A stretch of DNA of 58,993 nt from positions 1 to 58,993 of IMG/VR virus record IMGVR_UViG_3300025276_000003. One strand, 5' to 3'. The notes beneath the pieces are model-generated. The model saw nothing but the letters and a program-made list of their open reading frames with translations. It was not told where the DNA came from and searched no databases. The stretch is from a virus (taxonomy: Duplodnaviria; Caudoviricetes). The stretch's first letter is position 1. The number at the start of each line of letters is the position of its first letter. The position numbers were made by a program, and so were the translations under genes. This document shows, piece by piece, positions 2,612 through 58,047 of the stretch.

Positions 2612-2622
2612 AGGAATCAAAA

Positions 2623-19214: not shown

Positions 19215-21230
19215 ATGACACAAAGTTTTAGAAGTAAAGTAATAACAAGACGGACATATAACCGTCCTTTGAACGATGAAGGTACTGTGTTTGAGACATG
19301 GCCACAAACTGTTGACCGTGTTATTGGTCACCAGAAGTGGTTGTGGGAGAGAGCACTAGGTCAATCCCTAAGCTTTGGGCAACTAGAGGAACTAGAAGAA
19401 CTGCGAGATTTGATGCTGGCTAGGAAGACTTCAGTCTCTGGCCGAACTTTGTGGCTTGGCGGAACAGAAGTGTCCAAGACCTGTGAAGCATCTCAGTTCA
19501 ACTGTTCAGGTACTCGCGTAGAAGTTGTTTATGATGTAGTCGATACTATCTGGCTACTTATGCAAGGTTGTGGGGTTGGCCTAGAAGCGGTGACAGGTAA
19601 CTTAACTGGGTTCCGTAAGAAGCACAAAGTATCAGTTGTTAGGTCTACTCGTGAGTCTAAGGGCAATCCAGACAATGCTGAATATATTAATGATGGTGTA
19701 TGGACTATTAAAGTGGGTGACTCTGCTCAAGCATGGGCCAAAGCTGTTGGTAAGATTATAGTAGGCAAGAACAACGTCAGTGAGATTGTGTTGGACTTTA
19801 CTGAAATTAGACCTGCTGGATCAAGGCTGAAAGGTTATGGCTGGATATGCTCTGGTGATGAACAAGTTAGCAAAGCATTTGTAGCCATTTGTGAGTTACT
19901 GAACAACAGAGCTGACCAACTACTCAGTGATATGGACATACATGACATAGAAAATTGGCTGGGTACAATACTTTCATCACGTAGAAGTGCTGAGATCATC
20001 ACTAAGAAGTATGGTAGTGAGGATTGGGAGGGATTTGTAGCTCGTAAAACTAACTATTGGTCTTGTAACTCTTGCGGATCACACAACACTACATTAGGAG
20101 TATGTAATGATTGTGGAGCAAAAGATACCAACGATTTTAGAACCCAATCAAATAACAGCTTACTGTTTGAGTCCAAACCTAGCTACCCAGAGCTTAGAGA
20201 CATCTTTAACAGGATGGAGAGTGCTGGCGGGTCTGAACCGGGCTTTATTAATGTTGCTGCTGCAAGACTACGTGCGCCTTGGTTCGCTACACTAAACCCC
20301 TGTGCTGAGATACTGTTGCCCAACAAAGGTTTCTGTAATTTAGTAGAAATTAACTTGGCTGCATTTAGTGACAAGGAACACGGTGAGTTAGACCGCGCTA
20401 TAGAAGTTATGGCTCGTGCTAACTACAGACAAACTTGTGTGAACTTACGTGACGGAATCTTGCAAGAAGCTTGGCATACTAACAATGAGTTTCTACGCTT
20501 GTGCGGTGTTGGACTTACTGGTGTAGCTCAGCGTCCTGACATCAAAAGTCAAGAACTTGGCTCTATGAGGCAGATAGCACACAACTCTGCTAACTCTATG
20601 GCAGACGAGCTTGGGACACCTAGACCTAAGAATGTCACAACCATTAAACCCTCTGGAACTCTCAGCAAGATTATGGACTGTACTGAGGGGTTACATATAC
20701 CTTTAGGCAAGTACATCTTCAACTGGGTTGGGTTCTCATCCCACGATCCTATCGTACTAAAGCTTGTAGAAGCTGGTTACGAGTGGATGCAAAAGCCGGG
20801 TGATTCATCGACATACTTGATAAAGCTACCAGCAAGTTATGAAGGATGTAACTTTACAGATGTCAATGGCACAGAGGTAAACCTAGAATCAGCAATAGAT
20901 CAACTAGAGCGTTACAAGATGTATCAGATCAATTGGACTGATCAAAACACTTCTGTAACCATCTCCTATGACTTAACAGAAGTAGAAGATATTATTGCTT
21001 GGCTTCTAGAAAACTGGGATCACTACGTAGGCGTATCATTTATCTACAGAAATGACCCAACTAAGACAGCAAAAGACCTTGGTTACGAGTACCTTCCACA
21101 AGAAGTTACCACCAAGGAAGAGTTTGAAGCATATGTAGCAATACTAAAAGATGTAGACCTCGATGCTGTAAACTCTCACGACCAAATTGAAGGGGATGAG
21201 TGCGCCACTGGCGTCTGTCCAACTCGATAA
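19215..21230 (+). CDS. nrdJ: Class II (adenosylcobalamin-dependent, monomeric RTPR-like) ribonucleotide reductase
   Basis: RTYNR, SQFNC, LNPCAEI, FCNLVE, TTIKPSGT, C-terminal CATGVCP; no R2 (NrdB) gene seen. Confidence 0.9.
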   Translation: MTQSFRSKVITRRTYNRPLNDEGTVFETWPQTVDRVIGHQKWLWERALGQSLSFGQLEELEELRDLMLARKTSVSGRTLWLGGTEVSKTCEASQFNCSGTRVEVVYDVVDTIWLLMQGCGVGLEAVTGNLTGFRKKHKVSVVRSTRESKGNPDNAEYINDGVWTIKVGDSAQAWAKAVGKIIVGKNNVSEIVLDFTEIRPAGSRLKGYGWICSGDEQVSKAFVAICELLNNRADQLLSDMDIHDIENWLGTILSSRRSAEIITKKYGSEDWEGFVARKTNYWSCNSCGSHNTTLGVCNDCGAKDTNDFRTQSNNSLLFESKPSYPELRDIFNRMESAGGSEPGFINVAAARLRAPWFATLNPCAEILLPNKGFCNLVEINLAAFSDKEHGELDRAIEVMARANYRQTCVNLRDGILQEAWHTNNEFLRLCGVGLTGVAQRPDIKSQELGSMRQIAHNSANSMADELGTPRPKNVTTIKPSGTLSKIMDCTEGLHIPLGKYIFNWVGFSSHDPIVLKLVEAGYEWMQKPGDSSTYLIKLPASYEGCNFTDVNGTEVNLESAIDQLERYKMYQINWTDQNTSVTISYDLTEVEDIIAWLLENWDHYVGVSFIYRNDPTKTAKDLGYEYLPQEVTTKEEFEAYVAILKDVDLDAVNSHDQIEGDECATGVCPTR

Positions 21231-21256
21231 TTAAATTAACCTTACGGAGAATCAAA

Positions 21257-21904
21257 ATGGCTAATGCCCAAAAGAAAGAAACCTCAATTGTAACAGTAAA
21301 AGACGTTTACTTTGTATACAGTTCAGTGAGTGAGCCTCGTTCACAACTAAACCCTGATAACAAGGCTATGATGTCGGATCACGAATTGGAGGGTCATTCC
21401 TACCAAATCAGCATCCTCATGCCTGAAGATCGTTTCAAGTCTGAGCTAAAGCGCGAGTTCAAGGGCGCTAAGAACTTTCCTAACGCTAAGGAATATAGTC
21501 CTGAAGAGTGTGAAGAGTTGTTTGGAGTCTTTGTTGAAGATGACATGGTTTCAATCAAATTCTCTCAGACCTGTCTTACTGGCAAGGCAAGCAATCGTGT
21601 ACCTACTCGTCCTATCACACAGATCGGTATTAAGGGTAAAGTACAGGACATTAACGGTGTTACTATTAGCCAAGATACTAACCTGGGCTATGGCACTAAG
21701 GGTCACTTCCAATTCAATCCTTATCACAACGAGAAGAATGGATTGTACCTGTACCCACACCTAGTTTGTGTTACTGAACTAGTTGAGTACGCTGGTGGTG
21801 GTAGTGCTGAAGACTTAGATTCACTAGGTTTGGAGGAGCTTGACACTGTAGACGTAACTGAAGCTGTGGTCACTAAAGAAGAATTTGAAGATCCCAACTT
21901 TTAA
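21257..21904 (+). CDS. Single-stranded DNA-binding protein (T7 gp2.5-like)
   Basis: Position in the replication module; LVEYAGG followed by a long acidic tail ending in Phe; followed by a terminator. Confidence 0.7.
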   Translation: MANAQKKETSIVTVKDVYFVYSSVSEPRSQLNPDNKAMMSDHELEGHSYQISILMPEDRFKSELKREFKGAKNFPNAKEYSPEECEELFGVFVEDDMVSIKFSQTCLTGKASNRVPTRPITQIGIKGKVQDINGVTISQDTNLGYGTKGHFQFNPYHNEKNGLYLYPHLVCVTELVEYAGGGSAEDLDSLGLEELDTVDVTEAVVTKEEFEDPNF

Positions 21905-21960: not shown

Positions 21961-22092
21961 ATGACAACATACATGGCAGTAACAAAATCCGGGCAGACTA
22001 GCTACTTTTCTGCACGAACAGAATCAGACGCATTTCAGCAAGCAACCAGCTGGGCAGGAGATGACTTATTGGAGAGTTTCAATGTCGCTTGA
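21961..22092 (+). CDS. Hypothetical protein (43 aa)
   Basis: GGAG RBS; MTTYMAVTKSGQTSYF... Confidence 0.5.
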   Translation: MTTYMAVTKSGQTSYFSARTESDAFQQATSWAGDDLLESFNVA

Positions 22093-23017
22093 TGACTTAG
22101 GTTTGACAGACTACGAAGCAGAAGAAGAGAAAACCCTACTAATTGACGGAGATATACTAATATACAAGCCTTGTTGCATTTATAACGAGGACGATGACTA
22201 TGATCGTAAACAGATTGAGAAGAACATCAATCACAAAATAGATCAGCTAATGGAGTTATCAGGTTGTGGCAGTTACATCATGTTTGTCACTACTAAGACA
22301 AACTTCAGAGACTTCTTAGTTGACGACTACAAAGCTAACAGAATTGACACAGTACGACCAGTCAACTTGGCGTGGGCTAAGCGGTGGGCTGTAGATACTT
22401 TCAACACACATTACCGATCAGGACTTGAAGCAGATGACCTGTTAGGCATTCACCAGACTAAAGACACAGTTATCTGGAGCTTGGACAAGGACTTGCGACA
22501 GATCTCTGGACTTCACTTGGACGATGCAACAAGCAAGGTCATTACTGTCACCGAAAATGGTGTACTGAGGAAAAAGTTAGGAGCACTAAAGAATCCTGAC
22601 ACTAATAGTAAGGCGCGCAAGGCAACCAAATATTACTTCGACGGTCTGGTAGGGCTCTACTTCCAGATGCTGACAGGTGATGATACGGATTGGATTGTTG
22701 GCTGTGGAGAACGTAAAGAGTACACTGTTAAGTCAGGTGCCAGTGCTGGACAAGTTAGATTAAAACGCTTTGGAATAGGGCCGGGTAAAGCATACGAAAT
22801 GCTTTCAGAAGCTAGAACTATTGAAGATGCGTTTGATGTAGTTTGTGAAGAGTACCGTAAGCAATACGGTGATAACTGGATAAAACACCTTGAAATACAG
22901 TCTAACTTATTGTTCATGGTGCGAGAACACAATGAAAATCTCGTGAGGCAGTGGACTTATGATGACAGAGAGCAGTGGCTTGACATAGATACTGGAGAGA
23001 CTCATGAGGTTACTTAA
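22082..23017 (+). CDS. 5'-3' exonuclease (T7 gp6/FEN-like)
   Basis: LLIDGDIL, YKANR, LEADDLLGI, SLDKDLRQI, LTGDDTD, GIGPGKA. Confidence 0.9.
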   Translation: MSLDDLGLTDYEAEEEKTLLIDGDILIYKPCCIYNEDDDYDRKQIEKNINHKIDQLMELSGCGSYIMFVTTKTNFRDFLVDDYKANRIDTVRPVNLAWAKRWAVDTFNTHYRSGLEADDLLGIHQTKDTVIWSLDKDLRQISGLHLDDATSKVITVTENGVLRKKLGALKNPDTNSKARKATKYYFDGLVGLYFQMLTGDDTDWIVGCGERKEYTVKSGASAGQVRLKRFGIGPGKAYEMLSEARTIEDAFDVVCEEYRKQYGDNWIKHLEIQSNLLFMVREHNENLVRQWTYDDREQWLDIDTGETHEVT

Positions 23018-23369
23018 ATCATCTGACTTAGCCAACATACGAAAGAAGTACACTGCTAAGCAGCGTTACTTGTGTGCTCTGTGTGATGGTACATTGGCCG
23101 GTGGTGTTCCTATGTTGGACCACTGCCACAAGACTGGACATGTAAGGTCAACCTTATGTCGTTCATGTAACGAAGGAGAGGGTAGAGTGTTGTCAGGAAT
23201 GATGATACGCACACCCGTAACTAATTTAGCTAAGAAAGATCCTGTCAAGTGGCTGCGAAGACTCGCAGACTACTGGGAGTATCATGCTGAAAACCCGTCA
23301 GGCTTCATTCATCCAACATTTGATGTAAAGACTGGCAAACAAAAACCTGTAAAGCGGAGAAAGAAATGA
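23004..23369 (+). CDS. Recombination endonuclease VII (Holliday junction resolvase)
   Basis: CALC...LDHCHKTGHVRSTLCRSCN. Confidence 0.85.
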   Translation: MRLLKSSDLANIRKKYTAKQRYLCALCDGTLAGGVPMLDHCHKTGHVRSTLCRSCNEGEGRVLSGMMIRTPVTNLAKKDPVKWLRRLADYWEYHAENPSGFIHPTFDVKTGKQKPVKRRKK

Positions 23370-28690: not shown

Positions 28691-29029
28691 ATGTCTTGCT
28701 CAGATCTTCCTGAATATGATATAGAGTTATACAGTGGTGATGACAAGACGCTGAAGTTTAGATACAAGACAAGTGGTGCTGCAATTGATATCACAAGTTA
28801 CGAAATAGAGCTTGAGTGCTCTTCACCAGAGCTAGCTAAGATGGCCGTGATAGCTGACCAGACTACTAACACAGGGGAGTATTCTTTTGTGTATGTACCT
28901 GCTGATACCATTGGCCTTGAGGTTCGTCGTGTTAAATATGAAGTAGTTTTCTGGCCAACAGGGTTGACAGGAACTAAACAAACTATGTACCGTGGATCTA
29001 TACTAATAACACCGGAGCGAGTATTATGA
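28691..29029 (+). CDS. Putative structural adaptor (BppU-N-like Ig fold)
   Basis: GDDKTLKF..G.AIDITSY...GEY.F...DT...YEV..G.I pattern; coupled to the collagen-fibre gene. Confidence 0.5.
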   Translation: MSCSDLPEYDIELYSGDDKTLKFRYKTSGAAIDITSYEIELECSSPELAKMAVIADQTTNTGEYSFVYVPADTIGLEVRRVKYEVVFWPTGLTGTKQTMYRGSILITPERVL

Positions 29030-36250: not shown

Positions 36251-36634
36251 ATGGCTAGTATGAATATGCGTAGGGCCTTTAATAGTAAGATGCTAACAAA
36301 GATCAAAAAGTATTCTATTACTGGCGGAGCTTATGATGTAGACAACAATTGGATTCAAGGGCAGGCTTCAGTATCTAATATTTATGGTGTGATAAAAGCA
36401 GGTAATAAGTTTTCTCAATTTGATGAAGGTATATCCAAACACTTAGATGAGGGTGGCATACGTAATAGTGACTATTGGTCTTTGTACGTAGTCAATAAAT
36501 ACTCCTTAGAAATGAATGATAAGGTATACTTTCACGGCAGGTACTACAACGTTATGCAACAGTCAGATGAAAGAGAGTTCGGATTTCATTCTTACCTAGT
36601 AGAACGTGTACACAATTGGGAGCCGCCATCATGA
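36251..36634 (+). CDS. Head-closure protein
   Basis: Synteny; G.YD..NNWI.G and D.V.F.G..Y.V pattern. Confidence 0.65.
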   Translation: MASMNMRRAFNSKMLTKIKKYSITGGAYDVDNNWIQGQASVSNIYGVIKAGNKFSQFDEGISKHLDEGGIRNSDYWSLYVVNKYSLEMNDKVYFHGRYYNVMQQSDEREFGFHSYLVERVHNWEPPS

Positions 36635-37161
36635 GGTCTGACGTAAAAGCTCTACAAGTTATGATAGATTCGATGGTCGGTATTGAAAAGTTCTCCTATC
36701 CATCAAGACAGAATGAAGCTCCAAAACCACAGGACGAGTTTGCACACATAACTCTTCTTGAGGAATATCAAATAGGTTTGCCAGTTAATGGCATACTAGA
36801 ACAAACAGATGAGATTACTACATACAGGACTATCAGTCCAGCTCGGCTTAGGCTTAGAGTTGGAGTAGTAGATACTGACGGTGTAGCCTCCTCAAAGATC
36901 ATGCATGGTTGGACATCGGAAGCTATGAAAGCTTTAATGATTTCAACTGGCTACGGTTTTATCAGCTGTCACCCACTGTCAAATGAAGATGCCAAACTTG
37001 AAAAGGAATGGGATTTTAGGCAAGGGTTTTCAGTTGAGTTGTATACTACCAGAGTCTATGATCAGACTGTAGACAACATACTACAGTTAGAGATATCTGG
37101 AGAGTTTGTCACACCGCAACTGGACACAATCCTTTTGCAAATCAATATAAACGAAAATTAA
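36631..37161 (+). CDS. Neck/tail terminator protein
   Basis: Immediately upstream of the sheath; RQNEAPKP motif. Confidence 0.6.
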   Translation: MRSDVKALQVMIDSMVGIEKFSYPSRQNEAPKPQDEFAHITLLEEYQIGLPVNGILEQTDEITTYRTISPARLRLRVGVVDTDGVASSKIMHGWTSEAMKALMISTGYGFISCHPLSNEDAKLEKEWDFRQGFSVELYTTRVYDQTVDNILQLEISGEFVTPQLDTILLQININEN

Positions 37162-37173
37162 CAAGGAACAATT

Positions 37174-38652
37174 ATGGCGATTGAAATTACTGAATTTGCC
37201 AATGTCTCTATCTCTGTATCTCCTGTTGGAGTTGGTGCTGGAAACTTTGGTATCTTAGGTTTTCTAACCTCAGATTCAGACCTTAACATTGCTGGTAAAG
37301 GTATCCTCCCAGCTGAACGTGCTAGATCTTATACTAGCTTAGCAAGTGTTGGTGGTGATTGGCAGGCTTCTTCAGAAGTCTACAAAGCTGCTACTGCCTT
37401 CTTTTCTCAGACCCCTACCCCAACTGACTTTCTAGTTAAAGTATGTTACGAAACTGCTCAGCCTTCTACTTTGGTTGGTGGCGGTTCTGACACTGCTGCT
37501 GAGTTGATTGCTGCCACTTGGAATGGTTCCGGTGAGCTTTCCATGAATATCGAAGGAGTTGATGTTGTCATCACTGACTTAGATGTATCTGGTGCTGCAA
37601 CTTCTGACTACGCTGGTGTTGCTGGCGAGCTAGAAGCTATTATCTCTGCTATTGTTGTTGGCACAACTGTTACTCACAATGGCTACCAGTTTGTAGTAAC
37701 TGCACCCACTTCTGGTGTATCTTCTACAATGACTGCTCCTGCTTCTACTGAAGCTACTGTTGCATTGGGGTTAGCTGTTCAGCTTGCTTCTGTTTCTCCT
37801 GGCATTGCCGTTGAAACTCCTGTTGATGCATTGGCTGCTACTCTTGCAAAAGGAATAGTAGATGTTGGTCTAGTTACTAACAAGAAGTGGCGTGACGTTG
37901 TTGGTGTTGCTACTGGCAGCTCAACTACTGACATTGCTATGTGGGCTGAAGGCGCTAAGCGTATCTTCTGTAACACTACTAATGATCTCACTACCCTTAC
38001 TTCTGGCACTAGTCACATTGCTGCTGACCTTAAAAGTAGAGCTTTGCGTTTTAGCTTGACTACTTTCTCTAAGGATGCTACTGCATATCCTTCAGCGTCT
38101 GTCTTTGGTCGTGCTGCATCTGTAAACTTCTCTGCGATCGGTTCAACTATCACTCTTAACCTCAAGCAGATGCCGGGTATAGCTGCTGAAAACTTGACTC
38201 CATCTGAGTTTGCTAGCATGAAGTCACACTTCTGTTCAGCTGTTGTACAGATTGGTTCAAGTGTTAGTGCATATACTGACAGCCGAATGGCTTCAGGTTC
38301 ATGGCTAGACACTACTCACGGAATATTGTGGTTAGAGAACCGTTGTGAAGCTGACATGTTTAACCTTCTGTATGTGTCTGGAACTAAGCTTCCTTATACT
38401 CAGGTAGGTATTAACACTGCTGCTGCAACTCTTGAGCGTAGCTTACAAGCTGCTGTTCGTAATGGTTTGGCTGGTCCCGGAACTTTAGCTGACGGAACAT
38501 ACTTGTCAGAGGGTTTCATTGTTGAGTCCGTATCATTGGCCAACACTCCAGTGAGCGACAAAGGTAACCGCATGTATAAGGGCTTGTCCTTTAAGATGGT
38601 TGGTGCTGGCGCAATGCATGAAGTCGAAGTTTCAGGTCAATTCTCAGAGTAA
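37174..38652 (+). CDS. Contractile tail sheath protein (DUF3383 type)
   Basis: ANVSISVSP, YKAATAFFSQTP, TITLNLKQMPG, GSWLD..HG..WL, KLPYTQ.G. Confidence 0.9.
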   Translation: MAIEITEFANVSISVSPVGVGAGNFGILGFLTSDSDLNIAGKGILPAERARSYTSLASVGGDWQASSEVYKAATAFFSQTPTPTDFLVKVCYETAQPSTLVGGGSDTAAELIAATWNGSGELSMNIEGVDVVITDLDVSGAATSDYAGVAGELEAIISAIVVGTTVTHNGYQFVVTAPTSGVSSTMTAPASTEATVALGLAVQLASVSPGIAVETPVDALAATLAKGIVDVGLVTNKKWRDVVGVATGSSTTDIAMWAEGAKRIFCNTTNDLTTLTSGTSHIAADLKSRALRFSLTTFSKDATAYPSASVFGRAASVNFSAIGSTITLNLKQMPGIAAENLTPSEFASMKSHFCSAVVQIGSSVSAYTDSRMASGSWLDTTHGILWLENRCEADMFNLLYVSGTKLPYTQVGINTAAATLERSLQAAVRNGLAGPGTLADGTYLSEGFIVESVSLANTPVSDKGNRMYKGLSFKMVGAGAMHEVEVSGQFSE

Positions 38653-38668
38653 CTAATAGGAAAACATT

Positions 38669-39166
38669 ATGTACCAATATAGTTTCGCCAATGTTGACCT
38701 CATTATTGAGGCTAACTATCCAGACATGCCAGCAGGAAGCCCCTCTTCGTTTAAGATTCAGGGATTCGCAACTGGTGAAAACCTAATAAGTATTGCACGA
38801 AGAGCACCGATTGCTACACAAACTTTCGGAGCTTATGGTGATATGGTTGTTAACATGCAACGTATCCGAGCTGGTGATCTGGCTTTTCCAGTACTTCAAA
38901 ATGCTTTAGAAAACAAGTACTTGCAGGACTACGCAAACTACTTCCAACAGCAAGCTGATGACAATGGTCAGCTGGTCTTCCCTATTCAAGCTAAGTTAGT
39001 TGATAACATGGGTAAGGACACTTGCAAAATGGAAAATGGAGTTATACTTGCTATGCCTCCTATGATGCGTGGACAGACTATGTCTACTGTAAACTGGGTA
39101 CTAACATTTGAAACCGTGACTTTCAACAGAGAGCATGGCGGAGATTTAGCCCAACTGGGTGCCTAG
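38669..39166 (+). CDS. Tail tube protein
   Basis: Follows the sheath; YSF..V...I.GF..G...GAYG; followed by a terminator. Confidence 0.8.
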   Translation: MYQYSFANVDLIIEANYPDMPAGSPSSFKIQGFATGENLISIARRAPIATQTFGAYGDMVVNMQRIRAGDLAFPVLQNALENKYLQDYANYFQQQADDNGQLVFPIQAKLVDNMGKDTCKMENGVILAMPPMMRGQTMSTVNWVLTFETVTFNREHGGDLAQLGA

Positions 39167-39186: not shown

Positions 39187-39214
39187 GCCCAACCATCCTC
39201 GGTTGGGCTTTTTT
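39187..39214 (+). terminator. Rho-independent terminator
   Basis: GCCCAACC-ATCCTC-GGTTGGGC followed by TTTTTT. Confidence 0.85.
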
Positions 39215-39233
39215 ATTTACCAAGGAGAAAACT

Positions 39234-39608
39234 ATGTCAGAAGATTATCACGCTACCTTAAGAGGTGGACAAGAGATTTACATACCAAGCTGGTCTGCAA
39301 AGGTCCAGTACAAGAACATGATGCAAGTTTGCAAGTACTTAGGTCAAGCAAATGTTGTTGCAATATCAGCCCTAGATGTACCAGCTACCGTAGTAGCTTT
39401 AATGGGTTCTGATGAACCAGATGTCACAACTGATCTGGTACTACACTTTATTCAACAGGCCCGTATTGACGGATCTAAGATTGATACAAACAAAGCTGAA
39501 GAGCTTGGCATGACACTCATAGCTGAACTATTCACACACGTAATACATTCACAGTACGCTGATTTTTTCGAATCAGGTCTAGCAAGGGACACCTCCCAGA
39601 GCACTTAG
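39234..39608 (+). CDS. Tail assembly chaperone (G)
   Basis: Between tube and tape-measure position; slippery heptamer near its 3' end. Confidence 0.75.
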   Translation: MSEDYHATLRGGQEIYIPSWSAKVQYKNMMQVCKYLGQANVVAISALDVPATVVALMGSDEPDVTTDLVLHFIQQARIDGSKIDTNKAEELGMTLIAELFTHVIHSQYADFFESGLARDTSQST

Positions 39609-39826
39609 CATCTGGAGGGAGTCAAGTGTTGCCGGTAGATTATAATAGTATCTACCCAGAACTGAATGGCTACTTGATAAAACCCTTACTAGTAAATCCT
39701 CCAATGTGTACGCTTAAGGAGTTGTCTGACGGAACGTATAACCTGTACGACTTAGAGGTTATGCACCAGATCATAGAGATCAAACAGTACAACCCTATAG
39801 TACTCGAACAAATCAAACCACAGTAA
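39563..39826 (+). CDS. Tail assembly chaperone extension (GT) reached by -1 frameshift at T TTT TTC (39563..39569)
   Basis: The -1 frame is open from the heptamer into track ORF 39626..39826 (TLKELSDGTYNLYDL motif). Confidence 0.75.
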   Translation, partial: FFRIRSSKGHLPEHLASGGSQVLPVDYNSIYPELNGYLIKPLLVNPPMCTLKELSDGTYNLYDLEVMHQIIEIKQYNPIVLEQIKPQ

Positions 39827-39841
39827 ATAAGGAATAGAGCT

Positions 39842-42800
39842 ATGGCTGACAAAGATAATGTAGATGGAAAGTATCCTAGCTCTAAACCTAAAAGAACATT
39901 AAGCCTTAAGGGGGGAGCAAAGAGGAAGAAGTCTGCTTACTCTGTATCACCGGGATCAATAGACGGACAGAGAGAAAGAGCACCTAAGAGTATGTCCGAA
40001 ACTATGGGCGGAAACTACGGCAAGATTAAAAAGGTTCAGCACATGCTGGACACTATGGAAATGACTGGCGGAAAACGCCAAGAGCTGTACGACATTATAG
40101 CTCACTTAGAAGAAGATGATTATGTAGATGAAATAAGCAACTCAGGTCTGGGAGACACTGGACTGACTGCAGTGGCAAGCTCAAACTACAGTGGAGATGA
40201 TGCAGTAGAGGAAGAGACATACCAAGGAATGTCAGAGTATGGCGAGACTGACACTAGTAATATACTAGCCCAAAGAGTTATGTCAATGAGCTACGGAGTG
40301 CAGGCTGCTACCTTGGGCATCATAGACGGCTCGTACAGCCCGTCAGGGAAAGATGAAATTGAGCTTACTGCTGCCATAGAGGACTTCACTAAAAGCCTAG
40401 GAGGGTCCACTACTGAGTTCGTGAGAGCTGTTAAGTCTCAGCTGCCCAGTGGTGTAAAGCCGACAAGGAGTAAACAGGACGTAAACCTTACTCTGTCGAT
40501 GATGGGAAGCAGTGCTGAGGACTACATCAAAGCTGGTGGTACTAGGCTTGATGGCCAGACAATGAGTGCAGAGGCCGAGATAATCCAAAGGTATCAGCAA
40601 GAGAAGCTCTACAATAGGATTGAGAGTCTTGCTGATACCTACTACCTCACAGATGCTACTAAGGCATCGGACATATATGGCGTAAGAAAAGCACAGGTTG
40701 TTCAGGGCTTAGCCAAACACTTTATGGATACTGATATATCTGGAATAGGAGTGAGAGGTAGTTCAGCTCTTCCACTACCCAACCAGCTTGGTATACCCGG
40801 ACTGAAGTGGACAAAATCAGTTGGCTATGACAGAGTTGGTTCCGCCTTTACTCCAATGGAACATGCTCAAGAGATTGAGAGGGTTAAGGCCAGAGGTGGG
40901 TCAGTTACTTTAAAAGAACAATGGGAGCTAATCAATAGAGGCCCAAGCGCAAAGGATACCTTCTCACCCTATGACGAATCACTGTCAAAGTTTGGGAAGA
41001 CTTCCGAAGAGATAAGAGCCATACAGAAGAGTAGGTTTGATGCAATCAACGATGATGCACTTGAGCTTCGTGACCTTCTCAGATCACAGACTGCTACCAT
41101 TGCTGATGGAAACAATGGCTTCAGATCTCGTGTCATAGGCCAATGGAATCCTAACGGGGACCAAGCTGCTGCAACAGAGTTCAGAAACTTTCATAGCGCA
41201 CAGCTTGGGATGACTGGATTGAATGAGTGGTCTGGCAGCGACGACAGTGAAACAAGACAGATGGACACTGACGCCCCAATGCACCAAGGTGGATCTAGGA
41301 AAGGTCAGGAAAGTGGTGGCATGTATGGAGCTAAGGGTATGTCTGAGCAGGAAGAAGCTGTACAGTCAGACATGGCTAGATACCAAGAGCTGATAGAGGC
41401 ATCTGGATTTAAGATGAGTTCTGATGATGCTATTGCAAGAGTGATGGAAGAGAAAGATCCTACAGCAACAAAGCCTGTCCTAAGTACTGATGGCTACTCA
41501 GCCTATGACTATTACAAGCGAAATGTAGCTGGATCTGTAACTCCTGCCCAAGGTAGTGACGAGTGGAAGTCTCAACGAACTGGTAACGTAACAGGTTCTG
41601 TTGCTAAAAAGTTGTTGCAGAAGAATGGACACGTTGCGATGGCAGTAGAAGTTGCCTCTGGTGTACTTGGTCTTGGTGGGTTTGCAGGCAATGCAGCATC
41701 TAAGCAAGGTAATGACTTTGAGGATAAGGTAAGGGATACATTCCTTGCCAGTCCTGAAGGTAAAGACATACACTGGGAAGAAGCCTTTTATGAAAGTCAT
41801 AAGGATAACTCAAGGTTTGGCGCAACTCCTGATGGAAGACTCTTTCACAAAGATGGCTCAAGTGCTGGTCTAGCTGAATTCAAGTTCTTTGGTGACAAGC
41901 ACATGAGCATAGGGAAGGCTCGTCTGGAAAAGGAAATCAACCCCCAAGTGCAGTGGCAGATGTATGTCTCTGGCGAAAGAGAGACAAGGGTAACTTGGCT
42001 CAACAGTGAAACTAACAAGTACATTCACAGCGTGATAAAAGCTGATCCTGAATTACAAAACAAGATGGCGGCTACTGCTAGAGCTTCAATTAAGATTGCA
42101 GATGAGTTGCATAGTGCATCGGAGGTACAAAAGATGAGGTTAAAATACGGAGGTGCAAAACAAGCTTCAGCAGGAGGAGGTGGTCAGGATAAGGAATTCG
42201 TTCCCAGTGATGTAGAAGCAGAAGTTCCAATGGCTGCGTTTGTAGCTGGTGATGATGTATCTTACGGAGAGGATGTATCTGACGTAGGTCCGGGTGGTCC
42301 CAAGGCACAAGCTGCAAGAGCTGAAAAAGCTAAGCTACTTGAAGAGACGATAGCTAAACCAAAAGCAGGATCACCAGAAGCTATTAAGGCAGACAAGGAA
42401 GCGGCTGATGCTGCCAAGAAGTCTGCTGCTGCACTGAATGCACTGGCTTCAACTGTCAGGAAAACTGGCGCAGTGATGGAGCAGCTGGGAAATTTGGTTC
42501 AGAAAGCTACGGACAGTGTTCTCGATGAAGACAGGTCTGCTAGACTCAATGCAATGGACACTGGAGAGCAGCGTGGCATAGCAAGGGCAATGGCGAATGC
42601 AAACGTAAGCGACTCTGCTATTTCCCAAACCCTGACTCAAGCAGGTAGTATTCAGGCTCAGTTGGGTATGGACCCAAACAATGCGCCTAACAAGTTGATG
42701 GCTATGAATGCAGGCTTGAGAGGTCCGGGTGCTACACCTGAGATGCGAGCTATAAAACTTCCTAGCAATGATGACTACTTGAGGATGGGGACTAAAGAGC

Positions 42801-43585
42801 GAATGGCTCAGGCAATGGATGCCATAAACTCTGTAGATTCTCGTGAAGAGAAACAGAGGGTGGCCAATGCTATGGGGTTTCCTCAGCTTGCTACAGCTAA
42901 CGACCTAACTGGGAATATGATACGAGAGGCTAGTAACGATCTTGTAGATGGTAGGGTTAAGGCTGCACAAGATACTGGCACAGGTTTAGCCAAGTATGAC
43001 CAAACGAAGAAGGATATTCTCGAACAAGGTTCTCAAGTGGGAGAGGAAGCGGGATTCCTTGCGGGTGGAGCTAGTGATCTTGGTGGGCTCTTACAGAAAC
43101 CTGCTGGTGGACTGGCAACAGCGAAAGCTCTTGGTGGTGCAGCTGTTGCTGCTGGTACTGTTAAGGCAGCTGCTATTGCTGCGGGAACTACTACAATGGG
43201 AGTTATCACAGCTCCTGTTACTGGTATCGCGGTCACTGGTGCTGCTGCTTCCTATGCAGCTTACAAAGCTTCTGAGGCAAATCCATTAGCTAAGGGTACT
43301 GGCGACTTCATAGGACAGGGTATTGATCAGGTAGCTTCATTCTTTGGTAGCGACGATGCTACGAAAAGGATAGAGGACATGAAGATCTTTAGGGAACAGC
43401 AAGCATTTCCCAGCATGAAGATTAGCGGTCCTGCTGTTTTAGAAGATAGGTACTACGGAGTTGGTGGCAAGCCTACTATAGAAAACATGGACATAACTTT
43501 AACCCAGAACAACGATGACATCAGTGCTCAAATTAAGTTAGATGGAGAAACGTATCAGGGTGACAACAGAGTGAGGACTAGGTAA
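39842..43585 (+). CDS. Tape-measure protein with an internal YqaJ/lambda-exonuclease domain
   Basis: Position after the G/GT chaperones; Ala/Gly-rich helical C-terminal third; QGSDEW..R...TGS, G..FE, GATPDG, EFK, Q.QWQM motifs at ~41549..42080. Confidence 0.75.
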   Translation: MADKDNVDGKYPSSKPKRTLSLKGGAKRKKSAYSVSPGSIDGQRERAPKSMSETMGGNYGKIKKVQHMLDTMEMTGGKRQELYDIIAHLEEDDYVDEISNSGLGDTGLTAVASSNYSGDDAVEEETYQGMSEYGETDTSNILAQRVMSMSYGVQAATLGIIDGSYSPSGKDEIELTAAIEDFTKSLGGSTTEFVRAVKSQLPSGVKPTRSKQDVNLTLSMMGSSAEDYIKAGGTRLDGQTMSAEAEIIQRYQQEKLYNRIESLADTYYLTDATKASDIYGVRKAQVVQGLAKHFMDTDISGIGVRGSSALPLPNQLGIPGLKWTKSVGYDRVGSAFTPMEHAQEIERVKARGGSVTLKEQWELINRGPSAKDTFSPYDESLSKFGKTSEEIRAIQKSRFDAINDDALELRDLLRSQTATIADGNNGFRSRVIGQWNPNGDQAAATEFRNFHSAQLGMTGLNEWSGSDDSETRQMDTDAPMHQGGSRKGQESGGMYGAKGMSEQEEAVQSDMARYQELIEASGFKMSSDDAIARVMEEKDPTATKPVLSTDGYSAYDYYKRNVAGSVTPAQGSDEWKSQRTGNVTGSVAKKLLQKNGHVAMAVEVASGVLGLGGFAGNAASKQGNDFEDKVRDTFLASPEGKDIHWEEAFYESHKDNSRFGATPDGRLFHKDGSSAGLAEFKFFGDKHMSIGKARLEKEINPQVQWQMYVSGERETRVTWLNSETNKYIHSVIKADPELQNKMAATARASIKIADELHSASEVQKMRLKYGGAKQASAGGGGQDKEFVPSDVEAEVPMAAFVAGDDVSYGEDVSDVGPGGPKAQAARAEKAKLLEETIAKPKAGSPEAIKADKEAADAAKKSAAALNALASTVRKTGAVMEQLGNLVQKATDSVLDEDRSARLNAMDTGEQRGIARAMANANVSDSAISQTLTQAGSIQAQLGMDPNNAPNKLMAMNAGLRGPGATPEMRAIKLPSNDDYLRMGTKERMAQAMDAINSVDSREEKQRVANAMGFPQLATANDLTGNMIREASNDLVDGRVKAAQDTGTGLAKYDQTKKDILEQGSQVGEEAGFLAGGASDLGGLLQKPAGGLATAKALGGAAVAAGTVKAAAIAAGTTTMGVITAPVTGIAVTGAAASYAAYKASEANPLAKGTGDFIGQGIDQVASFFGSDDATKRIEDMKIFREQQAFPSMKISGPAVLEDRYYGVGGKPTIENMDITLTQNNDDISAQIKLDGETYQGDNRVRTR

Positions 43586-44553
43586 TGACAATTAAGAAGT
43601 TCGGACAGGAGGTATACTTAGAAGTTAGGGGCAAAGAAAAAGAAATGATTCTGGATGCCTCTGGACTTCGTATTGACTTTGATATAAGACAGACCAATGG
43701 TTACAACTTAGCAACCTTTACTATCTACAACTTGACACAAGAGTCAGTGAATAGCCTACTAAGCGACAGCTACAAAACTGTGTCGCTTGGAGTCTCTTTG
43801 CATGATAGCCCAATACAGTTCTTAGCTACTGAGTATTTTGTAAGTAATGTAGTGGACGAGATTGTAGTGCCAAACAGGATAGTAAAGTTGTATTGTCAAG
43901 ACAAGCTACTGCTAGATTATCTTGAGAAGCCAGTCGAGTTTGTTTCAAAGTCAAAGACTCTAAAGAGTTTAGTCAACAGCGTAACATCTCATGTTAAGTT
44001 TAAGGGAAGTGTGGAGTACAATACCTTTCCATATAACCTAGAGAACCAAGCACTGTCTGGAAGAAGTAAGAGGCCTTTTACAGGAAATATGCTGTCATGT
44101 TTAAATGAACTTGGAAATGAGTATAACTTCAATCTGTATACTAAGGATGGTAACTTGGAACTTTTGTACAAGCCCAACCTAGATAATGTGAATGGAACTA
44201 GTCTATACAAAGATCCAGTCATAAGGCTACAGTCAAACAACATGAGAACTAACCCGTCAATAGGACTGGGAAGTATGACAGTTGTGTCTAACCTTGACCC
44301 AAGGATGAGGACAGGAGCCATACTAGAGACAAGAGACTTGCTAACTGCATCTACAACTACTAGTGAAGTTGCACTTCAGACTCAAGAGAGGCTTATCTCA
44401 GAAAGTATAAATGGGTACAGCAGATACCAAATCTGGAACGTACAGCATAAAGGAAGTAACTACACAGGTGATTGGCACTCAATAGTGAATGCCTACACCC
44501 CAACTCGCGGAAAACAAATGATGACAGGAACCTCAACTTGGTTTAGGTCGTAG
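43585..44553 (+). CDS. Baseplate hub protein
   Basis: GLRIDFDI, ATFTIYNL, HKGSNYTGDW; synteny. Confidence 0.7.
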   Translation: MTIKKFGQEVYLEVRGKEKEMILDASGLRIDFDIRQTNGYNLATFTIYNLTQESVNSLLSDSYKTVSLGVSLHDSPIQFLATEYFVSNVVDEIVVPNRIVKLYCQDKLLLDYLEKPVEFVSKSKTLKSLVNSVTSHVKFKGSVEYNTFPYNLENQALSGRSKRPFTGNMLSCLNELGNEYNFNLYTKDGNLELLYKPNLDNVNGTSLYKDPVIRLQSNNMRTNPSIGLGSMTVVSNLDPRMRTGAILETRDLLTASTTTSEVALQTQERLISESINGYSRYQIWNVQHKGSNYTGDWHSIVNAYTPTRGKQMMTGTSTWFRS

Positions 44554-44561
44554 GAGTTATA

Positions 44562-45734
44562 ATGGCGAAAGTAACGCCCGCAGCCATTACCTACACTCCA
44601 GTAGGTCAGGCTAAGACAGTACTAAAGTTTCACACTGTAGTATCGGAAGCACACCAAGCTGTATCGGAAATTACAAAGTTTCCTGTACAGTCTGGGTATG
44701 AAATAAGTAATAATGTAATACGTAAGAATAGGATACTGACAATCGAGGGAGTGATTTCTAACTTGCAGATGGCATCATCTAAAACCTATTACAAATATTC
44801 GGAGACAGATAATGCAAAAGCTGTCTTTGAGGCACTGGAGTCTTTGGTTAGTAATGGCACACCTTGTGAGGTTGTTACTAACCTAGGAAGATACAACCCA
44901 GTAGTGTTTAACAGTTTCAACACTAAGCAAGCAGCTGGCCTTATAGACTCAATGCACTTCACTATATCTGGTGAGGAGTTGCAGATAGCAAGTAACCTAA
45001 ACACTTCTGGAGCTAAGTCTCTACCATTCATAGAGTTGACAGGTGCAGAATACGAGCTTAGGGTGGAGGCACTAAAAGAAGCTAAGTTTGAGGTTTGTGG
45101 TGATGCAACCATATCTGAAGCCAGTTTTGAGTTAGGTACAGACTTCGTACTAGACGGAGTTAATGATCTTGGATTGCCAACAAAGACTTCATACATAAGC
45201 AACGGACTTGACACTGTTACTGGAGGGTATAGCTACTCAGTACATACGTCAGATGTTGACATGTACATACCAGAGGCTGACAAAGTTCTGCCAACTGGTG
45301 GCGACCTTGATGACATATCTTCTTCTGGAGGTTTTGCTCAAGTAAGTAGTTGCATGACAGATTCGGGTGCTGAGATAATAGAAGAGGCAGCCGTAGATTA
45401 TATAGACACAGCTATGGGACAGCTTGCAGAAAGTGCAAGAGGAGCACTGTACGACACAATGAACCTAAGTGGGGATGAGGTTGGGCAGTCTTTAATACAT
45501 GCTGGTGTTGGGTGCATGGCAAGGGGTTTAAATGATGTGGTGTCAGAAGCTTGGTTCTTGCCCGGAGAAGGATTGCCGACTGCCCAAGACATAGTGGACG
45601 GAGCCGTAAACTTTGGCGCAAGCTTGTTTAGCAATGATGGCGAGATACCCACAACTGATAACGAAAAGATTGTAGCAGAGATTGCAGAAAAAGCAGCTCC
45701 AGCAACAACAACTATAACTCAAGTTCAATGCTAA
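44562..45734 (+). CDS. Tail tube initiator/Dit-like protein
   Basis: SE.H...SEIT.FPVQSG..ISN....LTIEG.ISN. Confidence 0.7.
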   Translation: MAKVTPAAITYTPVGQAKTVLKFHTVVSEAHQAVSEITKFPVQSGYEISNNVIRKNRILTIEGVISNLQMASSKTYYKYSETDNAKAVFEALESLVSNGTPCEVVTNLGRYNPVVFNSFNTKQAAGLIDSMHFTISGEELQIASNLNTSGAKSLPFIELTGAEYELRVEALKEAKFEVCGDATISEASFELGTDFVLDGVNDLGLPTKTSYISNGLDTVTGGYSYSVHTSDVDMYIPEADKVLPTGGDLDDISSSGGFAQVSSCMTDSGAEIIEEAAVDYIDTAMGQLAESARGALYDTMNLSGDEVGQSLIHAGVGCMARGLNDVVSEAWFLPGEGLPTAQDIVDGAVNFGASLFSNDGEIPTTDNEKIVAEIAEKAAPATTTITQVQC

Positions 45735-54183: not shown

Positions 54184-54203
54184 AAAATATTTGGAGTTAC
54201 TAA

Positions 54204-58036: not shown

Positions 58037-58047
58037 AGGAATCAAAA

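What the first reader, a model, noticed from the sequence alone, without database searches (positions are those of the whole stretch)
41549..42080. Lambda-exonuclease/YqaJ nuclease domain embedded in the tape-measure protein: a possible injected end-processing enzyme
Seen: QGSDEWKSQRTGNVTGS, QGNDFEDKVR, FGATPDG, LAEFK and PQVQWQMYVSG, i.e. all YqaJ/Red-alpha motifs in order with the PD-(D/E)xK catalytic residues intact, in frame within the 1247-aa gene between the G/GT chaperones and the baseplate hub. Known: these are toroidal 5'-3' dsDNA exonucleases that normally partner an annealase, and tape-measure proteins are ejected into the cell and usually carry only muralytic domains. No RecT/Erf/Sak gene was recognised. 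Inference: the virion delivers a nuclease with the DNA to resect terminal repeats for circularisation, cap the genome end against RecBCD or other defences, or attack host DNA before any gene expression.
Basis: partly seen in the sequence, partly recalled or inferred. Interest (0 to 1): 0.85.

Follow-up and report, generated by a model that had tools for sequence, protein, structure and literature searches.

The report
Exonuclease domain inside phage tape measure
The tail tape-measure protein of this marine phage really does carry an intact lambda-exonuclease-type DNA-cutting domain, but the same fusion is found throughout a known phage family (Chaseviridae and relatives), where nobody seems to have studied what it does.

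Summary
Observation confirmed. ORF 39842-43585 (1247 aa) lies in the tape-measure slot: sheath, tube, G/GT chaperone with a slippery site, this ORF, then hub. It has a YqaJ domain (Pfam E=1.5e-8). A family profile hits LHK-Exo (E=8e-34) and lambda exonuclease (E=5e-13). An AF2 model (pLDDT 88) superposes on both. The catalytic E/D/E/K residues and the 5'-phosphate Arg are kept in 87-89 of 89 family members, and the domain is the best-conserved part of the protein.

It is not a misassembly: independent marine contigs and 15 IMG/VR loci carry the same giant ORF in the same synteny.

It is not unique. phiEcoM-GJ1 gp62, the 4HA13 tape measure protein (found in virions by published MS) and the Aeromonas, Shewanella and Vibrio chaseviruses all have it. 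GenBank calls it anything from "tail fiber" to "exonuclease", and PHROG 149 calls it "exonuclease". My searches found no paper that discusses it.

No RecT/Erf/Sak is present, but the genome does encode a gp2.5-like annealase, a FEN-like exonuclease and endonuclease VII.

Verdict: a new marine member of a catalogued but functionally unexplored family. Interest is moderate to high because the question is testable in E. coli phages.

The parts
37174..38652 (+). tail sheath
   Evidence: phrog_205 E=1.4e-84
38669..39166 (+). tail tube (PHROG name: 'virion structural protein')
   Evidence: phrog_280 E=8.8e-21. 63-73% identical to the gene in the same position, after the sheath, in IMG/VR loci.
39234..39608 (+). 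tail assembly chaperone (G)
   Evidence: Pfam Phage_TAC_15 E=3.8e-7; phrog_11820
39563..39826 (+). slippery heptamer T TTT TTC (39563-39569) and the -1 frame extension (GT product)
   Evidence: Read from the sequence. The -1 frame is open from 39569 to the stop at 39824-39826. The ORF 39626-39826 hits phrog_4364.
39842..43585 (+). tape measure protein with an embedded nuclease, 1247 aa (P0001)
   Evidence: It is the only long ORF between the chaperone and the hub. Its homologues occupy the same slot.
40250..41122 (+). N-terminal helical region, aa 138-427, confidently modelled, no known fold
   Evidence: Full-length AF2 model: 10-residue blocks at pLDDT 62-93. No Foldseek hit outside the nuclease domain. 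The Atlas gave no usable hit.
41216..41341 (+). disordered, indel-rich linker, aa 459-500
   Evidence: pLDDT below 50. Gaps among close homologues. A 90-to-120-nt in-frame swap at 41223-41314 in run X2.
41534..42151 (+). lambda-exonuclease/LHK-Exo-type (YqaJ, PD-(D/E)XK) nuclease domain, aa 565-770
41576..41578 (+). R579, aligned with lambda exonuclease R28 (5'-phosphate pocket)
   Evidence: Printed alignment. R in 87 of 89 family rows.
41720..41722 (+). E627 of the GNDFED motif
   Evidence: E in 89 of 89 rows
41831..41833 (+). D664, aligned with lambda D119
   Evidence: D in 89 of 89 rows
41876..41884 (+). E679-F-K681, aligned with lambda E129 and K131
   Evidence: E in 88 of 89 and K in 88 of 89 rows
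42152..42307 (+). disordered linker, aa 771-822
   Evidence: pLDDT below 50
42374..43009 (+). C-terminal long-helix region, aa 845-1056 (includes one 58-residue helix)
43082..43276 (+). Gly/Ala-rich hydrophobic segment, aa 1081-1145
   Evidence: G+A fraction 0.49; Kyte-Doolittle 19-aa window up to 1.52. 81 of 87 family proteins of 1000 aa or more have a 19-aa window above 1.0; in 8 of the 9 whose position was printed it lies in the last quarter.
43585..44553 (+). baseplate hub
   Evidence: phrog_196 E=2.4e-20
44562..45734 (+). Dit-like baseplate protein
   Evidence: Pfam Dit_like E=5.1e-23
21200..21904 (+). gp2.5-like ssDNA-binding/annealing protein (a possible partner, encoded elsewhere in the genome)
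   Evidence: phrog_112 E=1.5e-9
22061..23017 (+). FEN-like 5'-3' exonuclease
   Evidence: phrog_107 E=2.4e-46. Pfam 5_3_exonuc_N at 29 bits, below the cut-off of 34.3.
23004..23369 (+). endonuclease VII
   Evidence: phrog_423 E=2.4e-30

Best explanation
The gene is the tape measure protein (TMP) of a Chaseviridae-like marine myovirus. Its helical ruler segments are interrupted by an independently folding lambda-exonuclease/LHK-Exo-type nuclease module that is catalytically intact and flanked by flexible linkers. TMPs sit in the tail-tube lumen next to the leading DNA end and leave the tail ahead of the DNA. The enzyme is therefore most likely delivered into the infected cell with the genome, before any phage gene is expressed. 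Once released and folded, it would act as a Mg-dependent 5'-to-3' exonuclease on a 5'-phosphorylated double-stranded end. The most probable substrate is the phage's own leading end, within the terminal repeat. Resection would leave a long 3' single-stranded tail that RecBCD-type enzymes cannot load on. That tail could later pair with the other terminal repeat, helped by the phage's gp2.5-like annealing protein.

Shown here: the identity and fold of the domain, conservation of its active site, conservation and synteny of the fusion, and virion presence of a relative's protein.

Inferred: ejection into the cell, enzymatic activity, the substrate, and the benefit to the phage.
For: Domain identity and fold.

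Selection on catalysis: E627 and D664 are kept in 89 of 89 rows, E679 and K681 in 88 of 89, R579 in 87 of 89, and Q702/Q704/Q706 in 87-89 of 89. All 16 invariant columns of the 36-row full-length alignment lie inside the domain. Against 32 distant rows, the domain is 40% identical while the flanks are 19-23%.

Modular insert: the domain is flanked by segments with pLDDT below 50 that vary by indels.

TMP role: G/GT chaperone with a slippery site upstream and hub downstream; long helices and a C-terminal Gly/Ala-rich hydrophobic segment; no other candidate in the tail module.

Homologues: the 4HA13 and phiEcoM-GJ1 proteins carry YqaJ plus a C-terminal SLT transglycosylase. The 4HA13 protein is listed second in the paper's figure of high-abundance virion peptides by LC-MS/MS (PMC9699118, Fig. 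7 legend).

Synteny: in 15 of 27 IMG/VR loci the domain lies in a giant ORF next to tail genes: both flanks in 7, only the upstream or only the downstream side on the 8 truncated contigs. The other 12 loci hold free YqaJ genes of 199-412 aa with no tail genes nearby.

Terminal repeats: Chaseviridae genomes are linear with repeats of about 3 kb (PMC12842549 passages).

Precedents: DNA and TMP are resolved together inside a phage tail (10.1101/2024.12.10.627806, abstract). The lambda TMP takes part in DNA passage through the inner membrane (10.1101/2025.11.03.685801, abstract).
Against: Nothing shows that this phage's TMP enters the cytoplasm or that the domain is active.

A folded domain of about 25 kDa per chain, and certainly a toroidal trimer, should not fit side by side in a tube lumen of about 4 nm (general knowledge, recalled). 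The domain would therefore have to travel unfolded or stacked in series and fold afterwards.

Only a few copies are present per virion.

The phage already encodes a FEN-like 5'-3' exonuclease, a gp2.5-like annealase and endonuclease VII, so the need for a delivered exonuclease is not obvious.

No Pfam or PHROG tape-measure family matches the protein.

Between the window's clade and the named chaseviruses only the nuclease domain is detectably homologous, so a single ancestral fusion is not proven.

The physical genome ends of this phage are unknown. The 3568-bp terminal repeat of the record has both borders inside tail-spike genes and looks like an assembly overlap.
Confidence: 0.5

Rival explanations
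1. Moonlighting in the producing cell. The nuclease acts late in infection, from the unassembled pool of TMP, as the phage's recombination or concatemer-processing exonuclease together with the gp2.5-like annealase. On this reading its presence in the virion is incidental.
For: The genome has an annealase candidate but no free lambda-exonuclease or RecE gene: the record holds one YqaJ site only (annealase). Free YqaJ genes of 199-412 aa are the usual form elsewhere (12 of 27 loci).
Against: A FEN-like 5'-3' exonuclease and endonuclease VII already cover a T7-style recombination toolkit. Tethering an enzyme inside a chaperone-bound, aggregation-prone 1247-aa ruler is an odd way to express it. 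The fusion has stayed in the same central position across very divergent TMPs, which argues that virion delivery matters.
Confidence: 0.15
2. Delivered weapon against non-self DNA. After ejection the nuclease degrades host, plasmid, co-infecting phage or defence-related DNA rather than processing the phage's own ends.
For: Delivery before gene expression would suit a counter-defence or takeover role. There is a precedent for a nuclease riding on a TMP-like protein of a contractile injection system: Tme of Streptomyces davawensis (PMC11126660, abstract and passages).
Against: The conserved R579 aligns with the 5'-phosphate pocket residue of lambda exonuclease, and the fold is that of end-dependent processive exonucleases. 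A circular chromosome offers no ends. A few molecules per cell are a weak weapon.
Confidence: 0.15
3. Mainly non-catalytic. The domain serves as an oligomerisation or DNA-end-holding module that tethers the leading DNA end to the TMP, and catalysis is dispensable.
For: Lambda exonuclease is a DNA-encircling toroid (title of PDB entry 1avq). TMPs are oligomers that lie next to the DNA end.
Against: The metal-binding and catalytic residues are kept in 88-89 of 89 divergent members. A purely structural role would not require this.
Confidence: 0.08
4. Artefact: a frameshift or chimeric assembly has joined a nuclease gene to a tail gene.
For: None found.
Against: A single open frame with no stops. 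A contig from an independent study spans the gene with in-frame differences only. The same architecture occurs in isolate genomes and in 15 IMG/VR loci.
Confidence: 0.01

Closest known systems
Lambda exonuclease (Red-alpha) and LHK-Exo of Laribacter hongkongensis (PDB 1avq, 3sm4, 3syy, 3sz4)
   Same: Same fold (TMt 0.71-0.80). Same catalytic D/E/K residues and 5'-phosphate Arg by alignment. The family profile is much closer to LHK-Exo (E=8e-34) than to lambda exonuclease (E=5e-13).
   Different: Those enzymes are free proteins of about 200-230 aa made in the cytoplasm; lambda exonuclease is co-crystallised with the C-terminal domain of Red beta (title of PDB entry 6m9k). Here the domain is an insert in a 1247-aa virion tail protein and no RecT/Red-beta gene is present. 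Whether it forms a trimer is unknown.
Chaseviridae tape measure / 'virion structural' proteins (phiEcoM-GJ1 gp62, 4HA13 QEM43042.1, Aeromonas phage vB_AhydM-H1 H1_0030) and PHROG 149 'exonuclease'
   Same: Same gene slot, similar length (1191-1239 aa) and a central YqaJ domain. The window's domain hits PHROG 149 at positions 585-808 of 1242.
   Different: Outside the nuclease domain there is no detectable similarity to the window protein. The two Cleopatravirinae proteins scanned (phiEcoM-GJ1 gp62, 4HA13 TMP) add a C-terminal SLT domain that the window's clade lacks (0 of 34 members). The major capsid protein is only about 44% identical, so this phage is a distant marine relative.
Tape measure proteins with embedded enzymatic domains (lytic transglycosylase or peptidase)
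   Same: Same principle: an enzyme module carried inside the ruler protein and released on ejection. The phiEcoM-GJ1 and 4HA13 homologues carry SLT in the same protein.
   Different: Those domains act on peptidoglycan in the envelope. A DNA exonuclease needs DNA ends, and therefore a different compartment or the DNA while it is in transit.
Tme, the TMP-related effector of the Streptomyces davawensis contractile injection system (PMC11126660)
   Same: A nuclease riding on a TMP-like protein in the gene slot before the baseplate genes of a contractile machine (abstract and passages).
   Different: Tme has a C-terminal EndA-like DRGH/H-N-N endonuclease, not a central PD-(D/E)XK exonuclease. It belongs to a bacterial CIS with no genome to deliver.
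Ejected DNA-end proteins (Mu N, T4 gp2, 80-alpha gp44)
   Same: Virion proteins that enter the cell with the DNA and deal with its ends. This is the function proposed here.
   Different: To my recollection they bind and protect ends without cutting them. The names are recalled; only the title of the 80-alpha gp44 paper was seen, in a reference list. None is a TMP with a nuclease fold.

Membership tests
YqaJ / lambda-exonuclease family (PF09588, PD-(D/E)XK) | Profile match above the curated cut-off | tested here: met
   35.5 bits against a cut-off of 22, E=1.5e-8. All 34 of 34 aligned relatives match.
YqaJ / lambda-exonuclease family (PF09588, PD-(D/E)XK) | Catalytic D...E-x-K triad, upstream acidic residue and 5'-phosphate-binding Arg | tested here: met
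   D664, E679, K681 and R579 align with lambda D119, E129, K131 and R28. They are conserved in 87-89 of 89 rows.
YqaJ / lambda-exonuclease family (PF09588, PD-(D/E)XK) | Three-dimensional fold | tested here: met
   AF2 pLDDT 88. Foldseek: LHK-Exo E=4.5e-11 with TMt 0.78; lambda exonuclease TMt 0.71, rmsd 2.6 A.
YqaJ / lambda-exonuclease family (PF09588, PD-(D/E)XK) | Toroidal homotrimer that encircles DNA | not testable with these tools
   Needs SEC-MALS, a crystal structure or cryo-EM of the isolated domain.
YqaJ / lambda-exonuclease family (PF09588, PD-(D/E)XK) | Processive Mg-dependent 5'-3' dsDNA exonuclease activity | not testable with these tools
   Requires a biochemical assay.
YqaJ / lambda-exonuclease family (PF09588, PD-(D/E)XK) | Adjacent RecT/Red-beta/Erf-type annealase partner gene | tested here: not met
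   No such family was found among the ORFs scanned. Only a gp2.5-like protein is present, 18 kb away.
Phage tail tape measure protein | Gene lies between the G/GT chaperone and the baseplate hub, after the sheath and tube | tested here: met
   The same order is seen in all 7 IMG/VR loci that show both flanks; in the other 8 giant-ORF loci only the upstream or only the downstream tail genes lie on the contig, and in phiEcoM-GJ1, 4HA13 and vB_AhydM-H1.
Phage tail tape measure protein | Long, largely alpha-helical protein with a hydrophobic or Gly-rich segment | tested here: met
   The full-length AF2 model is mostly helical outside the nuclease domain, with one 58-residue helix. The Gly/Ala-rich segment spans aa 1081-1145.
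Phage tail tape measure protein | Match to a curated TMP family profile | tested here: not met
   Pfam and PHROGs return only nuclease families for the whole protein. TMPs are notoriously divergent, so this counts only weakly against membership.
Phage tail tape measure protein | Present in virions; its length sets tail length | not testable with these tools
   This is an uncultured phage. In a relative, the 4HA13 TMP was detected by virion LC-MS/MS (PMC9699118 passages). Supplementary Table S2, which gives peptide coverage, could not be seen.
Chaseviridae (ICTV family) | Myovirus structural module plus a single-subunit T7-like RNA polymerase, with a genome of 52-56 kb | tested here: inconclusive
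   The unique length is 55,425 bp. RNAP-like genes lie at 6085-8277 and 24456-26318. However, the MCP is only about 44% identical to that of chaseviruses, and no formal genome-wide comparison was made.

The most novel reading that the evidence does not exclude
The tail lumen of these phages carries a working recombination-type exonuclease. It is threaded into the cell ahead of the DNA, assembles on the leading genome end and resects it before any gene is expressed. This makes the end invisible to RecBCD-type nucleases and primes terminal-repeat annealing. It may even help to pull the first kilobases of the redundant terminal repeat into the cell, acting as a hydrolysis-driven ratchet anchored in the TMP channel. 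This would be the first virion-delivered DNA end-resection enzyme in a tailed phage.
Probability: 0.3. Interest if true: 0.85.

Novelty: new member of a known kind. Interest (0 to 1): 0.6.

Why it matters
How the leading end of a phage genome survives its first seconds in the cell is known for only a few phages, and those use end-binding proteins. A conserved, catalytically intact lambda-type exonuclease built into the protein that precedes the DNA through the tail suggests a different solution: an enzymatic one.

The fusion is present in easily grown E. coli, Erwinia, Yersinia and Aeromonas phages. The idea can therefore be tested directly with point mutants, virion proteomics and end-mapping.

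There is also a practical annotation point. Public records call this one gene tail fiber, tail tube initiator, endonuclease, exonuclease, yqaJ, tape measure or hypothetical. PHROGs files it under DNA metabolism. As a result, pipelines mislabel the tape measure of a whole phage family.

Tried and rejected
1. tblastn and megablast of the gene against GenBank phages found nothing. Relatives appeared only through the capsid protein and then by Pfam scans of the gene in the same position.

2. Complex prediction on three copies of the domain returned 'no answer'. It says nothing either way about a trimer.

3. phmmer of the single domain against PDB sequences gave only a chance hit. The family profile was needed.

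4. The ESM Atlas search with aa 130-555 gave no usable hit. Foldseek of the full-length model found nothing outside the nuclease domain. The N-terminal helical region remains unassigned.

5. hhalign of the family profile against phiEcoM-GJ1 gp62 and the Aeromonas TMP aligned only the nuclease domain. A single origin of the fusion is therefore not shown.

6. A tree of embedded versus free YqaJ domains was prepared with 128 rows. The script machine was lost, so the tree was not built.

7. Physical genome ends could not be mapped, because all nine runs found are kept as contigs.

9. Literature: nine searches found no paper that discusses a YqaJ or exonuclease domain in a tape measure protein. None of the 16 papers that hold two or more of the six terms searched (YqaJ and five Chaseviridae terms) contains 'YqaJ'. 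Of the 14 listed papers with 'tape measure' and 'YqaJ', I opened one (PMC12629253), where they are separate genes. Subscription journals, including the original phiEcoM-GJ1 and Erwinia Y2 papers, were not searchable.

10. Rejected reading: the 3568-bp terminal repeat of the record as the physical DTR. Both of its borders lie inside tail-spike ORFs.
Full report
**What is in the sequence**

ORF 39842-43585 (+) encodes 1247 aa.
- Pfam YqaJ (PF09588) matches aa 574-711 at E=1.5e-8, 35.5 bits against a cut-off of 22.
- PHROG 434 'RecE-like recombination exonuclease' matches aa 565-855 at E=1.2e-16.
- This is the only YqaJ site in the record. The record is an IMG/VR virus contig of 58,993 bp, rated 100% complete.

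**Identity of the domain**

- A profile built from 34 family members hits the alkaline exonuclease LHK-Exo (3syy) at E=8.4e-34 and lambda exonuclease (1avq, 6m9k) at about 5e-13.
- In the printed alignment, R579, D664, E679 and K681 fall on lambda R28, D119, E129 and K131.
- An AlphaFold2 model of aa 540-800 has mean pLDDT 88.0 and pTM 0.81.
- Foldseek against the PDB returns LHK-Exo (E=4.5e-11, TMt 0.78) and lambda exonuclease (TMt 0.71, rmsd 2.6 A) ahead of Cas4, RecE and MGME1.

**Is the host protein a tape measure protein?**

The tail module reads, in order:
- tail completion protein (36616-37161)
- sheath (37174-38652)
- tube (38669-39166)
- TAC (39234-39608)
- this ORF
- hub (43585-44553)
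- Dit-like protein (44562-45734)
- wedge proteins

Further points in favour:
- The TAC gene ends with a slippery T TTT TTC at 39563-39569. Its -1 frame stays open to 39826. This is the classical G/GT arrangement that precedes tape measure genes.
- A full-length AF2 model (aa 48-1247, mean pLDDT 65.5) is almost entirely helical outside the nuclease domain and includes one 58-residue helix. It shows the nuclease flanked by segments with pLDDT below 50, at aa 459-500 and 771-822.
- A Gly/Ala-rich hydrophobic segment lies at aa 1081-1145. 81 of 87 family proteins of 1000 aa or more have a hydrophobic 19-aa window above 1.0; in 8 of the 9 whose position was printed it lies in the last quarter.
- No other ORF in the tail module could be the tape measure.

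Against: no curated TMP profile matches the protein.

**Not an artefact**

- A 10,248-nt contig from an independent marine study spans 39200-44600. It differs only by substitutions, an in-frame 90-to-120-nt swap at 41223-41314 and a 9-nt insertion at 42315. Both indels lie in the predicted linkers.
- Four close homologues (92-93% and 54-56% identity, 1260-1305 aa) all carry PF09588.

**How widespread is it?**

- An exhaustive HMMER search of 1.84 billion representative proteins found 98 clusters at E<=0.001, 92 of them at E<=1e-10.
- 87 of the 102 stored proteins are 1000 aa or longer. The domain query matches 100 of the 102, nearly always in the middle of the protein.
- In IMG/VR, 15 of 27 confirmed loci hold the domain inside a giant ORF next to tail genes: sheath-tube-TAC upstream and hub-Dit-wedge downstream in the 7 loci that show both flanks, one side only on the 8 truncated contigs. 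Nine of these ORFs are complete, at 1143-1425 codons stop to stop.
- The other 12 loci are free YqaJ genes of 199-412 codons with none of these tail genes nearby.

The capsid protein led to the Chaseviridae at about 44% identity. The gene in the same position was scanned in three named phages:

| Phage | Protein | YqaJ | Other domain |
|---|---|---|---|
| Aeromonas phage vB_AhydM-H1 | 1191 aa | aa 560-700, E=3.4e-9 | none found |
| phiEcoM-GJ1 | gp62, 1239 aa, annotated 'virion structural protein' | aa 459-591 | SLT at aa 1045-1149 |
| 4HA13 | 1204 aa, annotated 'tail tape measure protein' | aa 453-589 | SLT at aa 1025-1117 |

- tblastn finds near-full-length homologues of the Aeromonas protein in 25 of 28 matching GenBank records.
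- It finds near-full-length homologues of GJ1 gp62 in 80 of 133 matching records.
- These records are annotated as tail fiber, tape measure, tail tube initiator, putative endonuclease, exonuclease, yqaJ, virion structural protein or hypothetical.
- PHROG 149 ('exonuclease', 1242 positions) is this family; the window's domain matches its positions 585-808.
- The 4HA13 paper lists the tape measure protein second in its figure of high-abundance peptides from virion LC-MS/MS (PMC9699118, Fig. 7 legend and section 3.3 passages).
- I matched the gi number in that legend to QEM43042.1 by the consecutive numbering of neighbouring entries (an inference).

**Selection**

Among the 89 family rows with at least 150 aligned residues:

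| Residue | Rows conserved (of 89) |
|---|---|
| E627 | 89 |
| D664 | 89 |
| E679 | 88 |
| K681 | 88 |
| W575 | 88 |
| R579 | 87 |
| Q702 / Q704 / Q706 | 89 / 88 / 87 |

- In the 36-row full-length alignment, all 16 invariant columns lie inside the nuclease domain.
- Against 32 distant rows, the domain is 40% identical to the window protein, compared with 19-23% for the flanks.
- The enzyme is thus the most constrained part of a fast-evolving tail protein. This argues for catalysis rather than a relic or a purely structural module.

**Limits on common origin**

Outside the nuclease domain, the window's clade and the named chaseviruses share no detectable similarity. This holds for BLASTP and for hhalign of the family profile against the Aeromonas protein and GJ1 gp62, where only the domain aligns at 94.6% and 96.1% probability. 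The same slot, similar length and central position suggest one old fusion, but the tree that would test this could not be run.

**Genome context relevant to mechanism**

The phage has a T7-like replication and recombination set:
- RNA polymerase-like genes (6085-8277 and 24456-26318)
- Dda-like helicase (11193-12578)
- primase (15233-16060)
- DNA polymerase (16242-18194)
- gp2.5-like SSB/annealing protein (21200-21904)
- FEN-like 5'-3' exonuclease (22061-23017)
- endonuclease VII (23004-23369)
- a 3'-5' exonuclease subunit (23366-24253)

No RecT/Erf/Sak family was found. Chaseviridae genomes are described as linear with terminal repeats of about 3 kb (PMC12842549 passages). Their tails are given as 110-130 nm (PMC8472413 passages) or 116-166 nm. 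At the recalled rule of about 0.15 nm per helical residue, 1200-1250 aa is several hundred residues more than such tails need. That is consistent with non-ruler inserts (an inference).

**Most likely mechanism**

The TMP lines the tube lumen next to the leading DNA end. DNA and TMP have been resolved together inside a tail in 80-alpha (abstract). The TMP leaves first on ejection, and the lambda TMP takes part in DNA passage across the inner membrane (abstract of 10.1101/2025.11.03.685801). I therefore read the insert as a delivered enzyme.

The proposed sequence of events is as follows:
- Once out of the tube, the linker-flanked module folds, probably as an oligomer.
- It engages a 5'-phosphorylated dsDNA end and resects the 5' strand.
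- The nearest end is the phage's own leading terminal repeat.
- A long 3' tail would be a poor substrate for RecBCD loading (general knowledge).
- That tail could later anneal to the other repeat with the gp2.5-like protein.

The steps shown are domain identity, active-site conservation, fusion conservation and virion presence in a relative. The steps inferred are entry into the cytoplasm, activity, substrate and benefit. I put about 0.5 on this reading.

Rivals:
- A late cytoplasmic role of unassembled TMP (0.15).
- Attack on foreign or host DNA (0.15). This is disfavoured by the end- and 5'-phosphate-dependent architecture.
- A mainly structural or tethering role (0.08). This is disfavoured by the conserved catalytic residues.
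- An artefact (0.01), which is refuted.

A physical difficulty applies to all delivery models. Folded domains of about 25 kDa from several chains should not fit side by side in a lumen of about 4 nm (recalled), so the module must travel unfolded or stacked in series.

**Comparison with what is known**

- The domain is a member of the YqaJ/lambda-exonuclease family by profile, residues and fold. It lacks that family's usual neighbouring annealase.
- The host protein behaves as a TMP by position, chaperone, architecture and a relative's proteomics.
- TMPs with muralytic inserts are well known.
- A TMP-related effector with an EndA-like endonuclease has been described for a Streptomyces contractile injection system (PMC11126660).
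- Ejected end-binding proteins (Mu N, T4 gp2, 80-alpha gp44) are recalled examples of end protection without cutting.
- In nine literature searches I found no paper that discusses a lambda-exonuclease-type domain in a phage TMP. Subscription journals were not covered.

**Verdict**

- The feature is not a peculiarity of this window. It is a hallmark of a catalogued phage family that is inconsistently annotated and functionally unexplored.
- Novelty: a new (marine, distant) member of a known kind.
- Interest: 0.6, mainly because the question is directly testable in E. coli phages.

Noticed in passing
window 1-3568 and 55426-58993: The record's terminal repeat (offset 55,425) begins inside tail-spike ORF 54204-56051 and ends inside ORF 2623-4158. 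It therefore looks like an assembly overlap of a 55,425-bp genome rather than the physical terminal repeat of about 3 kb described for Chaseviridae.
   Followed up: partly
window 54200-54472, 56044-56316 (=619-891), 58044-58316 (=2619-2891): A module of about 273 nt, 71-72% identical between copies, opens three successive tail-spike genes. It is presumably a shared N-terminal anchor domain on exchangeable spikes.
   Followed up: no
window 6085-8277 and 24456-26318: Two separate genes for single-subunit RNA polymerase-like proteins (phrog_414 E=7.9e-33 and 1e-83; Pfam RNA_pol E=1.5e-53 for the second). The ICTV profile mentions one such polymerase for chaseviruses.
   Followed up: no
window 29026-31137: A 703-aa ORF with collagen-like and tail-fibre PHROG hits sits between the large terminase and the portal. 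This is an unusual place for a fibre-like gene.
   Followed up: no
window 50331-54155: A 1274-aa ORF in the fibre/spike region has only one marginal PHROG hit, to a family of unknown function (E=7.9e-4).
   Followed up: no
window 40250-41122 (aa 138-427 of the tape measure protein): A confidently modelled helical region (10-residue blocks at pLDDT 62-93) is conserved in the marine clade (motifs LPLPN, ADGNNG). It has no structural or sequence match in PDB, BFVD or the Atlas.
   Followed up: partly
window 41223-41314 and 42315: In an independent marine run, the gene carries an in-frame 90-to-120-nt replacement and a 9-nt insertion. Both fall in the predicted disordered linkers on either side of the nuclease domain.
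   Followed up: partly
GenBank records listed: The same gene is annotated as tail fiber, tape measure, tail tube initiator, putative endonuclease, exonuclease, yqaJ, virion structural protein or hypothetical. One near-identical homologue (87.7%) sits in a record named Staphylococcus phage Pel53, an odd host label for a phiEcoM-GJ1-like genome.
   Followed up: no
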